Positions 17,969 through 18,424 of a stretch of DNA of 64,000 bases are shown here, piece after piece. Numbering within the stretch: the stretch's first letter is position 1; each line of letters begins with the position of its first letter. The stretch is taken from contig CAVIDW010000001.1 of the NCBI GenBank assembly GCA_963641945.1, positions 31,136 to 95,135 on the forward strand. The letters are read 5' to 3'. The stretch is from a bacterium (GTDB lineage: Bacteria; Bacillota_I; Bacilli_A; RF39; UBA660). The notes beneath the pieces were generated by a model, which saw nothing but the letters and a program-made list of their open reading frames with translations, did not search any database and had not been told where the DNA came from. The translations under genes were made by a program, and so were the position numbers.

Positions 17969-18424
17969 ATGGAATATGAAATTAATTATGATACACAAAT
18001 ATTGTTACCAATAGGAAATGAAAAAGCTAAAATAATTGAAGATGATTGTGAATATAGTGTTGATAATTCGTGTCTTCAGGTTTTAGAACATAGTTGTGAG
18101 TATTTTGGTAGTTCATTACAAGGAAGAAAAGATGGAACTAAAAAATTACTAGGTATTACTCATAAAGCTCCAATAATAGTTGAAGAAAGTAGAAAAATAA
18201 TATTTTTCCCAACAACTTCGCCAGAAAAAGCAGAATGTATTTGGATAAACTTAGATAAAATTGATAAATACTATAAGAAGACAAATAAAACGTCAGAAAT
18301 TCTATTTAAGAATGGTGATAAGGTAGAATTTGATGTATCAATTGGATCTTTAACTAATCAAATTTTAAGAGCAACAAGATTAAAATTTATTTTAGAAGAA
18401 AGAATTAATAAAAAAGATAATTAA
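17969..18424 (+). CDS. comK: ComK-family competence transcription factor homolog
   Basis: About 151 aa from the internal ATG; RBS AAGGGGGA is 10 nt upstream. Matches B. subtilis ComK along its length (SC.YFGSS..GRK.GT, ITHKAPI.V, IFFPT.S, C.WI). Confidence 0.8.
   Translation: MEYEINYDTQILLPIGNEKAKIIEDDCEYSVDNSCLQVLEHSCEYFGSSLQGRKDGTKKLLGITHKAPIIVEESRKIIFFPTTSPEKAECIWINLDKIDKYYKKTNKTSEILFKNGDKVEFDVSIGSLTNQILRATRLKFILEERINKKDN

What the first reader, a model, noticed from the sequence alone, without database searches (positions are those of the whole stretch)
17969..18424. ComK homolog embedded in the dnaA-dnaN-recF-gyrB origin cluster
Bacillus-type gene order at this spot is dnaN-yaaA-recF-remB-gyrB. 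Here the yaaA slot holds a clear ComK-family protein, and recF abuts gyrB with no remB. The ComK match runs along the protein: SCEYFGSSLQGRKDGT, ITHKAPIIV, IFFPTTS, ECIWIN. A competence master-regulator homolog with its own promoter and terminator in the most conserved chromosomal neighbourhood is unusual.
Basis: partly seen in the sequence, partly recalled or inferred. Interest (0 to 1): 0.6.

Follow-up and report, generated by a model that had tools for sequence, protein, structure and literature searches.

The report
ComK gene fixed beside replication origin
A genuine ComK-type regulator gene (the family that switches on DNA uptake in Bacillus) sits between dnaN and recF, about 3 kb from the replication origin, and both this position and an unusual three-box control site in front of it are conserved across a large group of uncultured low-GC gut bacteria, so it is a lineage trait and not a one-off.

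Summary
ORF 17969-18424 (+) encodes a 151-aa protein that matches Pfam ComK end to end (E 4.7e-45). It lies between dnaN and recF, recF abuts gyrB, and no yaaA or remB is present. It is its own transcription unit. A terminator follows dnaN, an extended -10 promoter precedes comK, and a hairpin with a T-run follows it. recF then has a separate, conserved promoter.

The placement is odd only by Bacillus standards. dnaA-dnaN-comK-recF-gyrB holds in 59 of 63 assessable loci of related metagenome contigs and in 11 of 19 related species genomes. ComK identity in these falls to 31%.

Two features differ from Bacillus ComK:
- **No C-terminal tail.** Every ComK in the clade lacks the disordered tail. 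In B. subtilis that tail carries the MecA degron and is needed for activation and for cooperativity between boxes.
- **A different control site.** The promoter has no K-boxes. It has one to three head-to-tail TTCGACAAA boxes at a 10-bp period. This is the exact reverse complement of the Spo0A box TGTCGAA, and the boxes are about 185-fold enriched there.

My best reading is a tail-less ComK regulator next to the origin whose transcription is gated by Spo0A~P or a similar response regulator. Its role in competence is inferred, not shown. I rate it a new variant of a known kind, of moderate interest.

The parts
14876..15190 (.). dnaA upstream region, the presumed oriC, with DnaA-box variants (TTATCAACA, TGTTAAC-type)
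   Evidence: The GC-skew sign change and cumulative minimum lie at 12-16 kb. DnaA-box-like hits are at 14949 and 14982. Sequence read.
15191..16591 (+). dnaA
   Evidence: Pfam Bac_DnaA E 3.2e-56, plus Bac_DnaA_C and DnaA_N.
16731..17849 (+). dnaN
   Evidence: All three DNA_pol3_beta domains, E 1e-22 to 7e-37.
17854..17881 (+). Intrinsic terminator after dnaN (AAGCGAT-TTTT-ATCGCTT plus a T-run)
   Evidence: Terminator scan: 2 sites found against 0.2 expected. A hairpin with a T-run sits at the same place in relatives.
17890..17917 (+). Operator: three head-to-tail TTCGACAA boxes at 17890, 17900 and 17910 (10-bp period)
   Evidence: These are the only three TTCGACA in 64 kb on either strand. They are conserved in relatives: 48 of 70 non-redundant promoters have at least one perfect TCGACA and 38 of 70 have a tandem pair. 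Density is 10.6 per kb here against 0.057 per kb elsewhere, and no tandem pair occurs elsewhere in 836 kb. The reverse complement TGTCGAA is the Spo0A box core.
17926..17934 (+). Extended -10 of the comK promoter (TG-t-TATGAT), with no -35 hexamer at 16-18 bp
   Evidence: Sequence read. The same element lies 11-12 nt after the last box in 27 of 48 promoters, and a TG is present in 33 of 48.
17951..17957 (+). Ribosome-binding site AAGGGGG
   Evidence: Sequence read. Conserved in relatives.
17969..18424 (+). comK, encoding a 151-aa tail-less ComK-family protein
   Evidence: Pfam ComK E 4.7e-45. 930 homologues found. 39-42% identity to Bacillaceae ComK. AlphaFold2 model with pLDDT 93.5.
18410..18444 (.). 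Hairpin with T-run overlapping the comK stop; a likely A+T-rich terminator
   Evidence: 13-nt arms, 100% complementary. RNAfold gives -16.4 kcal/mol for the 85-nt stretch 18410-18494, which holds this hairpin and two smaller stems. Hairpins with T-runs sit at the same place in relatives.
18458..18466 (+). Separate extended -10 promoter for recF-gyrB-gyrA (TG-t-TATAAT)
   Evidence: Conserved across the clade as TGTGATATAAT or TGGTATAAT.
18477..18491 (+). Conserved element GTGTAGGAGTACCTA at or just after the predicted recF transcription start; function unknown
   Evidence: The only perfect TAGGAGTAC in the window. The core is kept in loci whose ComK is 100% down to 31% identical. No Rfam match.
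18534..19616 (+). recF
   Evidence: Pfam SMC_N E 1.1e-19. Aligns with RecF of relatives.
19617..21536 (+). gyrB, starting one base after the recF stop (no remB)
   Evidence: ORF list. The recF-to-gyrB gap has a median of 36 nt in 80 related loci.
21547..24096 (+). gyrA
   Evidence: ORF list and translation. Pfam families of the orthologues.

Best explanation
The ORF is a real ComK-family transcription factor gene. It is a fixed, separately transcribed member of the origin cluster dnaA-dnaN-comK-recF-gyrB-gyrA in a large clade of uncultured, low-GC, small-genome gut, rumen and digester Bacilli.

Shown here:
- family membership;
- the monocistronic anatomy: dnaN terminator, operator, extended -10, RBS, CDS, terminator, then a separate recF promoter;
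- clade-wide synteny;
- absence of the C-terminal tail;
- an operator of one to three head-to-tail TTCGACAAA boxes that is strongly conserved and strictly oriented.

Inferred:
1. The protein binds DNA as a ComK core and controls DNA-uptake and recombination genes. Because it lacks the tail, it cannot be controlled by MecA/ClpCP and cannot show the tail-dependent cooperativity between boxes that underlies the B. subtilis switch. Control has therefore moved to transcription of comK.
2. That transcription is gated by a response regulator that binds the boxes, most probably Spo0A~P. The boxes equal the Spo0A consensus, repeat every 10 bp, and occupy about -51 to -25. The middle box lies 21-22 bp upstream of the -10 hexamer, at the position a lone box also takes. 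From my own knowledge, Spo0A-activated sigma-A promoters such as spoIIG have this geometry, which would suggest activation.
3. Sitting about 3 kb from oriC keeps comK at the highest gene dosage. This would couple it to replication state, as shown for pneumococcal comCDE.
For: Family membership. Pfam ComK E 4.7e-45 over the full length. The protein is 39-42% identical to Bacillaceae ComK, with shared invariant residues. It is 37% identical to B. subtilis ComK residues 12-161, using a sequence I recalled from memory. The model is compact and confident, with pLDDT 93.5 and pTM 0.88.

Transcription unit..

Synteny.
- 11 of the 19 related loci from species genomes.
- Abundant human-gut relatives on scaffolds up to 1.38 Mb.
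- 59 of 63 assessable RecF-anchored metagenome loci. Their ComK sequences form 35 clusters at 70% identity and 9 at 50%.

Operator.
- The only three TTCGACA in the window are the three boxes.
- 48 of 70 non-redundant promoters carry a perfect box. 122 perfect copies lie in the 135-nt upstream stretches of all clade loci, against 96 in the rest of 836 kb; among the 70 non-redundant promoters only one perfect copy is on the reverse strand.
- The extended consensus is wwTTCGACAAAwTT.
- The boxes stay the same where ComK has drifted to 31-40% identity.
- The position relative to the -10 hexamer is fixed at 11-12 nt, or at 21 nt for single boxes.

Spo0A link.
- The core TGTCGAA, with contacts at G2, C4 and G5, is conserved from Bacillus to C. 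difficile.
- Spo0A~P binds five boxes at B. subtilis PcomK.
- The window carries YabG peptidase (238 bits) and a SpoVT-like gene.
- Related uncultured orders keep spo0A.

Tail. The B. subtilis tail (residues 158-192) is needed for activation and for cooperativity between boxes. It holds the MecA degron. All clade ComKs have a median length of 151 aa and end before it.

Dosage precedent..
Against: - No late competence gene and no further box lie in the 64-kb window, so the regulon is unknown.
- I could not show that spo0A is present in these genomes.
- Some sublineages carry different boxes that changed in concert within one promoter: TCTAC, TGTAC or TATAC, TTCGCAA, ACGAGAA. The TCTAC variant is equivalent to C4 to A, a change that lowers Spo0A affinity about 10-fold. 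This fits a co-evolving factor better than the invariant Spo0A.
- Asn at position 99 of ComK tracks the T-N-TAC boxes in two unrelated lineages.
- Tail-less ComK2 proteins of B. cereus and S. aureus lower competence gene expression instead of raising it. The protein could therefore be a repressor.
- The third box lies in the promoter spacer, where a bound protein would more often repress.
Confidence: 0.6

Rival explanations
1. The TTCGACAAA boxes are this clade's own ComK box. On this reading the tail-less ComK binds head-to-tail repeats and activates its own promoter. The loop is positive autoregulation as in B. subtilis, but with a different site, and Spo0A plays no part.
For: - ComK autoregulation is a core feature of the B. 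subtilis system.
- Box variants change in concert within a promoter in some sublineages.
- Asn99 occurs only in the two unrelated lineages that have T-N-TAC boxes. L015 is 68% identical to L006, has Leu99 and keeps TCGAC.
- The best structural neighbours of the model are LytTR DNA-binding domains, and LytTR regulators bind direct repeats (sub-threshold Pfam LytTR hit).
- The boxes occur nowhere else in 836 kb of clade DNA. That is what one would expect if the other targets are com operons lying outside the sampled regions.
Against: - Known ComK sites are A4-N5-T4 boxes, with two A-tracts and two monomers per box. They are not G+C-containing direct repeats.
- The box sequence stays the same while ComK diverges to 31% identity.
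- Position 99 is D, E, K, L, F or Y among TCGACA-type loci, so it can hardly read a base. L073, with Leu99, has TCTACA boxes.
- Only two independent events support the covariation.
- A 7-of-7 match to the Spo0A consensus, including flanks and the 10-bp phasing, would then have to be a coincidence.
Confidence: 0.2
2. The boxes are bound by another response regulator that recognises direct repeats, for example one of the OmpR/PhoB type. Such a regulator might be fed by the hybrid kinases encoded nearby. [quoted passage not shown]
For: Head-to-tail repeats at a 10-11 bp period in one strict orientation are typical of winged-helix response regulators (own knowledge). Two hybrid kinase-receiver genes lie in the window at 38251-42025. 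Variant boxes in some sublineages suggest a factor whose specificity can drift.
Against: The identity to TGTCGAA is exact and extends into the flanks (TTTGTCGAA). Direct Spo0A control of comK has a precedent. No candidate regulator gene is linked to comK in any locus.
Confidence: 0.2
3. The protein is not a competence activator. On this reading it is a ComK2-like repressor, or a regulator of replication and repair genes, and that role explains its fixed place next to dnaN, recF and gyrBA, or next to pcrA and ligA in a sister lineage.
For: - It lacks the tail needed for activation in B. subtilis.
- Tail-less ComK2 lowers comG expression in B. cereus, and the title of a 2025 paper says ComK2 represses competence in S. 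aureus.
- In two independent arrangements the gene sits beside DNA-metabolism genes.
- A conserved element of unknown function lies at the start of the recF transcript, directly downstream.
Against: - No ComK-type site (A4-N5-T4) lies near the neighbouring promoters.
- recF has its own strong promoter, conserved independently.
- Only one comK per genome was found by the scan, so there is no evident ComK1 partner for it to antagonise. The scan is limited by its search patterns.
- Exiguobacterium ComKs are also short.
Confidence: 0.15
4. The ORF is a recent insertion, for example mobile-element cargo, or a chance ORF in A+T-rich DNA.
For: The window is 22-29% G+C, so spurious ORFs are common.
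Against: The HMM E-value is 4.7e-45. There are 930 homologues. The synteny holds while ComK identity falls to 31% and DnaA identity to 39%. No repeats, integrase or tRNA flank the gene.
Confidence: 0.01

Closest known systems
Bacillus subtilis ComK (competence transcription factor, Pfam PF06338)
   Same: Same family over the whole core: 37% identity to residues 12-161, with shared invariant Cys, Gly, Arg, Pro, Phe and Trp positions. It is monocistronic with its own promoter.
   Different: - It lacks the disordered C-terminal tail (residues 158-192), which carries the MecA/ClpCP degron and is needed for activation and for cooperativity between boxes.
- No A4-N5-T4 K-boxes lie upstream.
- It sits inside the origin cluster, whereas Bacillaceae comK lies elsewhere.
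- No link to late com genes has been shown.
Tail-less ComK paralogues: B. cereus ComK2 and S. aureus ComK2
   Same: A ComK core without the C-terminal region.
   Different: Those proteins are second copies alongside a full-length ComK1, and they lower competence gene expression. Here the tail-less form is the only copy detected, and it is conserved across the clade at a fixed locus.
Spo0A~P gating of the B. subtilis comK promoter (0A boxes A1-A3, R1-R2)
   Same: Spo0A-box sequences lie at a comK promoter. The B. subtilis boxes bind Spo0A~P directly, and one of them overlaps the -35. The box core TGTCGAA is identical.
   Different: - In B. subtilis there are five scattered boxes, each with one or two mismatches, acting together with Rok and ComK boxes.
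- Here there are one to three perfect boxes in tandem at a 10-bp period, covering about -51 to -25. No -35 hexamer and no K-boxes are present.
- Binding and the presence of spo0A were not tested here.
Origin-proximal comCDE and comAB of Streptococcus pneumoniae (gene-dosage control of competence)
   Same: The early competence regulator is encoded next to oriC. Replication stress raises its copy number and can trip the switch. Here comK lies about 3 kb from oriC and 6 kb from a parS array.
   Different: The regulator family is unrelated (ComE and ComX versus ComK). The dosage effect here is only an inference from position.
LytTR DNA-binding domains (AgrA, ComE)
   Same: They are the best, though weak, structural neighbours of the ComK model. 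Foldseek probability is 0.9-1.0 and TM-score 0.54-0.59 over the LytTR domain. There is also a sub-threshold Pfam LytTR hit.
   Different: E-values are only 2e-3 to 0.2 and TM-score over the query is about 0.4. LytTR proteins bind 9-bp repeats about 21 bp apart, not 10 bp apart (own knowledge). I do not claim membership.

Membership tests
ComK family (PF06338) | Full-length match to the family profile above the curated cut-off | tested here: met
   E 4.7e-45 and 153.5 bits against a cut-off of 22.3; profile positions 3-151 of 152.
ComK family (PF06338) | Core alignable with experimentally studied or Bacillaceae ComK, with conserved residues | tested here: met
   39-42% identity to Bacillaceae ComK, with 13 invariant columns. 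37% identity to B. subtilis ComK residues 12-161, using a recalled sequence.
B. subtilis-type ComK switch | C-terminal tail: MecA/ClpCP degron, activation, and cooperativity between boxes | tested here: not met
   The protein ends at the position equivalent to about residue 163 of B. subtilis ComK. All clade members are tail-less. The role of the tail is documented.
B. subtilis-type ComK switch | K-boxes (A4-N5-T4 pairs spaced 8, 18 or 31 bp) at its own promoter | tested here: not met
   None near comK. One match in 64 kb against 0.47 expected, and it is intragenic. No consistent K-box in relatives.
B. subtilis-type ComK switch | Activates late competence operons (comG, comE, comF, comC, dprA, ssbB) | not testable with these tools
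   None of these genes lies in the window. Whole genomes of the clade could not be read.
Spo0A-regulated promoter (0A boxes) | Match to the 7-bp core TGTCGAA with G2, C4 and G5 | tested here: met
   Three perfect copies on the bottom strand at 17890-17916. The clade consensus TTCGACAAA is the reverse complement of TTTGTCGAA. The core is defined.
Spo0A-regulated promoter (0A boxes) | Tandem head-to-tail boxes about 10 bp apart, placed over or next to the promoter | tested here: met
   10-bp period in one orientation, with the last box 11-12 nt from the -10 hexamer. The reference geometry (abrB, the Spo0A-DNA crystal structure, spoIIG) comes from my own knowledge and was not checked here.
Spo0A-regulated promoter (0A boxes) | spo0A present in the same genome | not testable with these tools
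   No Spo0A_C hit in the loci I held. Indirect support only: YabG and a SpoVT-like gene in the window, and spo0A reported in RF39, ML615J-28, part of RFN20 and Erysipelotrichales.
Spo0A-regulated promoter (0A boxes) | Box sequence invariant wherever the regulator is conserved | tested here: inconclusive
   The box is kept in most lineages down to 31% ComK identity. It is replaced by TCTAC, TGTAC, TTCGCAA or ACGAGAA repeats in some. Whether those lineages lack spo0A is unknown.
LytTR DNA-binding fold | Significant structural or profile similarity to LytTR domains | tested here: inconclusive

The most novel reading that the evidence does not exclude
In an order-level clade of abundant, uncultured, small-genome gut Bacilli, the competence switch has been rebuilt and hard-wired to the chromosome origin. 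A minimal ComK without a tail replaces the Bacillus post-translational circuit (MecA, ClpCP, ComS and K-box cooperativity). A single transcriptional gate of perfect tandem Spo0A boxes controls it. Its position between dnaN and recF makes comK dosage follow replication initiation and replication stress. This would be an independent, ComK-based counterpart of the pneumococcal origin-proximal comCDE logic, and it would tie sporulation, replication and DNA uptake together in one 600-bp unit.
Probability: 0.2. Interest if true: 0.7.

Novelty: new variant of a known kind. Interest (0 to 1): 0.5.

Why it matters
These organisms are common in human-gut, rumen and digester metagenomes. ComK relatives of 70-72% identity occur in more than 150-250 blocks of the public-assembly index, most of those read being gut metagenomes, on scaffolds up to 1.4 Mb. 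None is cultured, and nothing is known about whether they take up DNA.

A conserved ComK with a simple control site gives concrete handles:
- a 30-bp operator that can be tested with Spo0A or ComK protein in vitro;
- a prediction about which genomes should keep spo0A;
- a marker for searching the ComK regulon.

If the Spo0A reading holds, the Spo0A-to-comK link seen in B. subtilis would be ancient and would be the dominant control in reduced genomes. If the ComK reading holds, it defines a new ComK recognition site. In either case, the fixed position next to oriC offers a second, independent case for asking whether competence regulators are selected to sit near the origin.

Tried and rejected
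- **Promoter scan.** The generic sigma-70 scan found no comK promoter, because there is no -35 hexamer. I assigned the promoter from conservation.
- **K-boxes.** Bacillus-type K-boxes with spacers of 8 and 18 bp occur at chance level in the window and are absent at comK. They were uninformative in relatives and in Bacillaceae controls.
- **NCBIfam.** No model matched the protein.
- **PDB by sequence.** No ComK structure is deposited.
- **Rfam.** Nothing at gathering threshold for the window, and nothing credible at permissive threshold for 17840-18560.
- **YaaA.** A recalled YaaA query found no hit in the window or any locus. This is weak evidence, because the query came from memory.
- **Spo0A.** A recalled Spo0A C-domain query found no hit in the loci I held.
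- **Other Spo0A-type sites.** TGNCGAA in the window gives only three further hits, all inside genes.
- **Literature.** Searches for ComK with dnaN and recF, with Erysipelotrichaceae, and with RF39 found no description of this arrangement. MAG names were not found in the literature, so the clade could not be given a taxonomy name.
- **Paper not held.** The paper on spoIIG box geometry was not in the library.
- **Walking outward from the window.** This yielded only a 7.6-kb contig on one side and nothing on the other.
- **Mobile-element or chance-ORF readings.** Rejected.
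Full report
**1. The observation**

It matches Pfam ComK (PF06338) with E 4.7e-45 and 153.5 bits against a cut-off of 22.3, covering profile positions 3-151 of 152. An in-frame ATG at 17930 would add 13 residues. The AAGGGGG ribosome-binding site at 17951-17957 and the 150-154 aa length of 120 listed homologues favour 17969 as the start.

The neighbours are dnaA (15191-16591), dnaN (16731-17849), recF (18534-19616), gyrB (starting at 19617, one base after the recF stop) and gyrA. There is no room for yaaA or remB. A YaaA query recalled from memory found nothing (weak evidence).

GC skew changes sign and its cumulative curve reaches its minimum at 12-16 kb. The origin is therefore next to dnaA, and comK lies about 3 kb from it on the leading strand. 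The window is 22-29% G+C.

**2. Anatomy of the unit**

- dnaN is followed by a terminator-like hairpin with a T-run at 17854-17881 (2 sites found against 0.2 expected).
- Three perfect TTCGACAA boxes follow at 17890, 17900 and 17910. These are the only three TTCGACA in the 64 kb on either strand.
- Twelve bases after the third box lies an extended -10, TG-t-TATGAT, at 17926-17934. No -35 hexamer sits at 16-18 bp, which is why the generic scan missed the promoter.
- A perfect 13-bp inverted repeat ending in a T-run overlaps the comK stop at 18410-18444.
- recF then has its own extended -10 (TG-t-TATAAT, 18458-18466), followed by a conserved element, GTGTAGGAGTACCTA, at 18477-18491.

**3. Relatives**

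- A scan of one genome per species found 47 ComK loci. Of the 19 from uncultured low-GC Bacilli, 11 show dnaA-dnaN-comK-recF-gyrB-gyrA or the part of that order their contig covers. DnaA identity in these falls to 44% and ComK identity to 49%.
- The other eight carry comK just downstream of ligA, or beside it on the opposite strand (L015), in a pcrA-ligA region.
- In Bacillaceae and Exiguobacterium, comK lies elsewhere.
- Two ComK relatives of 70-72% identity are listed in more than 150-250 blocks of the public-assembly index, most of those read being gut metagenomes, on scaffolds up to 1.38 Mb. They show the same order from rpmH to dnaX.
- A scan of metagenome contigs with a RecF alignment returned the 80 closest RecF loci, at 39-99% identity. 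Of the 63 with enough upstream sequence, 59 have dnaN, comK and recF in that order. The four exceptions have a rearranged origin, mnmE-recF.
- The clade's ComK sequences form 63 clusters at 90% identity, 35 at 70% and 9 at 50%. The recF-to-gyrB gap has a median of 36 nt, so remB is absent throughout.

There is an ascertainment caveat. The RecF query came from genomes that already have this arrangement, and only the nearest 80 of 527 hits were kept. The outer limits of the clade are therefore unknown.

Record titles call these organisms uncultured Bacilli, Erysipelotrichaceae or Mycoplasmatota, with some evident mislabels. I could not give the clade a taxonomy name.

**4. The operator**

- In 70 non-redundant comK upstream regions, 48 have at least one perfect TCGACA within 130 nt of the start codon, and 38 have a tandem pair 9-11 bp apart. 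In these 70 regions only one perfect copy lies on the reverse strand; all the others are on the coding strand.
- The density of perfect boxes is 10.6 per kb there, against 0.057 per kb per strand in the rest of 836 kb of clade DNA. No tandem pair occurs anywhere else.
- The extended consensus is wwTTCGACAAAwTT.
- The last box ends 11-12 nt before the -10 hexamer in 27 of 48 promoters. Where there is a single box, it lies 21 nt upstream (6 of 48), which is the position of the middle box in three-box promoters. A TG extension is present in 33 of 48.
- The boxes are retained where ComK is only 31-40% identical to the window protein, for example in L069, L071, L074, L090 and L133.
- Some sublineages have other repeats at the same place and period, with all copies in a promoter changed alike. 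These are TCTAC (the ligA subgroup, L073, L096), TGTAC or TATAC (L086, L088), TTCGCAA (L011) and ACGAGAA (L017).

**5. What binds the boxes**

TTCGACA is the reverse complement of TGTCGAA. That is the Spo0A box core, whose G2, C4 and G5 are contacted by the protein, and it is recognised alike by B. subtilis and C. difficile Spo0A. With its flanks, the clade consensus reads TTTGTCGAA on the other strand.

From my own knowledge and not checked here, three further points apply. The extended consensus from the B. subtilis regulon study is TTTGTCRAA. Tandem boxes in abrB and in the Spo0A-DNA crystal structure are head-to-tail with a 3-bp spacer. The Spo0A-activated spoIIG promoter has a -35-like element 22 bp from its -10, overlapped by 0A boxes.

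In B. subtilis, Spo0A~P binds five boxes around the comK promoter. Three activate and two repress.

The window carries a YabG sporulation peptidase (238 bits), a SpoVT-like gene, a PSP1/RicT-type gene and two hybrid kinases. A published survey finds spo0A and a reduced sporulation gene set in RF39, ML615J-28, part of RFN20 and Erysipelotrichales.

These points make Spo0A~P the leading candidate. I could not show spo0A in these genomes, and the window has no other Spo0A-type site outside genes.

The rival reading is that ComK binds its own promoter through these boxes. It draws on three observations:
- the concerted box variants;
- Asn at position 99 being confined to the two unrelated lineages with T-N-TAC boxes, while a 68%-identical relative with Leu99 keeps TCGAC;
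- the fold result in section 6.

Three points weigh against it. Position 99 is otherwise highly variable among TCGACA-type loci. L073 breaks the rule. Known ComK sites are A-tract boxes.

My estimates are 0.45 for Spo0A, 0.2-0.25 for ComK itself and 0.2 for another response regulator.

**6. The protein**

It aligns end to end with Bacillaceae ComK at 39-42% identity and shares invariant Cys43, Gly47, Arg53, Pro68, Phe80, Pro81 and Trp92. It aligns with residues 12-161 of B. subtilis ComK at 37% identity, E 2e-35, using a sequence recalled from memory. It ends where the B. subtilis tail begins.

That tail (residues 158-192) is disordered. It is required for activation in vivo and for cooperativity between the two K-boxes: the Hill coefficient falls from 3.7 to 1.8 without it, while binding as a dimer within one box is kept. 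The tail also contains the MecA recognition sequence FMLYPK.... B. cereus ComK2, which lacks 22 C-terminal residues, lowers comG expression.

All clade ComKs are tail-less, with a median length of 151 aa.

An AlphaFold2 model built on 36 sequences is confident, with mean pLDDT 93.5 and pTM 0.88. It shows a complete alpha/beta domain ending in a long helix at 125-150.

No solved structure matches by sequence. By fold, the best matches, though weak, are LytTR DNA-binding domains: 3d6w, pneumococcal ComE and AgrA. Their E-values are 2e-3 to 0.2 and their TM-scores over the target are 0.54-0.59. This agrees with a sub-threshold Pfam LytTR hit.

**7. Mechanism**

The following are shown: a ComK-family gene, separately transcribed, clade-fixed next to oriC, tail-less, and preceded by a conserved tandem-box operator in place of K-boxes.

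The following are inferred:
- The protein binds DNA through the ComK core and regulates DNA-uptake and recombination genes.
- Without the tail there can be no MecA/ClpCP proteolytic control and no tail-dependent tetramer-like cooperativity, so the decision is taken at transcription of comK.
- A response regulator on the boxes, probably Spo0A~P, sets that transcription. Two features favour activation: the core box lies 21-22 bp from the -10, and there is no -35. The extra box in the spacer could instead repress. The sign is therefore open.
- The origin-proximal position gives the highest and most replication-sensitive gene dosage, as demonstrated for pneumococcal comCDE and comAB.

No late competence genes or K-boxes are present in the window, so the competence role rests on family membership alone.

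**8. Novelty and score**

ComK, tail-less ComK paralogues, Spo0A control of comK and origin-proximal competence regulators are each known. The new element is their combination as a conserved unit inside the dnaA-gyrA cluster of a large uncultured clade. I found no description of it.

I rate it a new variant of a known kind, with interest 0.5. It is a solid and testable observation about abundant gut bacteria, but the protein family is ordinary and the function is unproven.

Noticed in passing
window 24119-25180: The 1.17-kb ORF-free gap between gyrA and the SRP RNA holds nine parS sites (TGTTNCACGTGRAACA). Six are perfect and three have one mismatch. Chance expectation is 0.04, and none occurs elsewhere in the 64 kb. 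Most are followed at once by a DnaA-box-like TGTGGATAA, TTGTTAATAA or TTGTTGATAA. The only two perfect DnaA boxes in the window are here, at 24358 and 24552. This is a very dense parS and DnaA-box array 6 kb from comK. The ParB gene is at 4905-6083 (-).
   Followed up: partly
window 18458-18491; same position in L001-L133: The recF-gyrB-gyrA promoter (TGnTATAAT) is followed 8-12 nt later by a clade-wide conserved element with core GTAGGAGTAC or TATAGGAGTAC. It is often embedded in a longer palindrome, TAGGTATAGGAGTACTnnTATACCTA. It is the only perfect TAGGAGTAC in the window and has no Rfam match. It could be an operator or a 5' stem-loop or stabiliser with a Shine-Dalgarno-like core.
   Followed up: partly
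window 17969-18424 (protein model m043294806716): The confident ComK model has LytTR DNA-binding domains (3d6w, S. pneumoniae ComE, S. aureus AgrA) as its best structural neighbours. Pfam also gives a sub-threshold LytTR hit at residues 92-119. ComK may be a distant LytTR-like fold.
   Followed up: partly
L006-L008, L010, L012, L013, L015, L016: In a sister group (ComK 50-54% identical), comK is not at the origin. It lies beside ligA in a pcrA-ligA region: directly downstream of ligA in L006, L008 and L010, and on the opposite strand in L015. This is again next to DNA-metabolism genes. The subgroup L006-8, L012, L013 and L016 has TCTAC repeats where the others have TCGACA.
   Followed up: partly
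ComK alignment column = window residue 99; L006-8, L012, L013, L016 and L086, L088, L096: Asn at this position occurs only in two unrelated lineages, and those are the lineages whose upstream repeats read T-N-T-A-C where the others read T-C-G-A-C. This amounts to two independent events, so it is suggestive only.
   Followed up: partly
window 12365-14875 (-): Three ORFs of 140, 210 and 382 aa with no Pfam match lie between rpmH and dnaA. The 382-aa protein recurs at the same place in relatives (33-98% identity, and as a 487-aa protein with no Pfam hit in L048-L053). It is a lineage-specific gene at the origin.
   Followed up: no
window 35520-36023, 38251-42025, 42082-42828, 29394-30233: Sporulation-type genes are present in a very small, A+T-rich genome. 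They are a SpoVT-like gene, YabG peptidase U57 (238 bits), a PSP1/RicT-type gene and two adjacent hybrid histidine kinase-receiver genes.
   Followed up: partly
window 18513-18536: The strong AAGGGGG site before recF is followed by a two-codon mini-ORF, ATG ATT TAG (18523-18531). The recF ATG at 18534 has no Shine-Dalgarno of its own. Relatives have GAGG 8 nt before the recF start at that spot.
   Followed up: no
L079, L080, L082, L127 (dnaN-comK spacer): A perfect DnaA box (TGTGGATAA) lies directly upstream of the TCGACA boxes in some clade members, but not in the window.
   Followed up: no
window 57409-58791 (+): A 460-aa Cys- and Thr-rich protein with no Pfam match has an N-terminus, KRNGFSILDLVV followed by a hydrophobic stretch, that resembles a prepilin-type signal with Asp at +5. 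It sits in a cluster of membrane or secreted proteins of unknown function.
   Followed up: no
L116, L118, L120, L125: Four related contigs have a rearranged origin, rnpA-yidC-jag-mnmE-recF-gyrB. dnaN and comK are not upstream of recF, and the recF-gyrB gap is 186 nt.
   Followed up: partly
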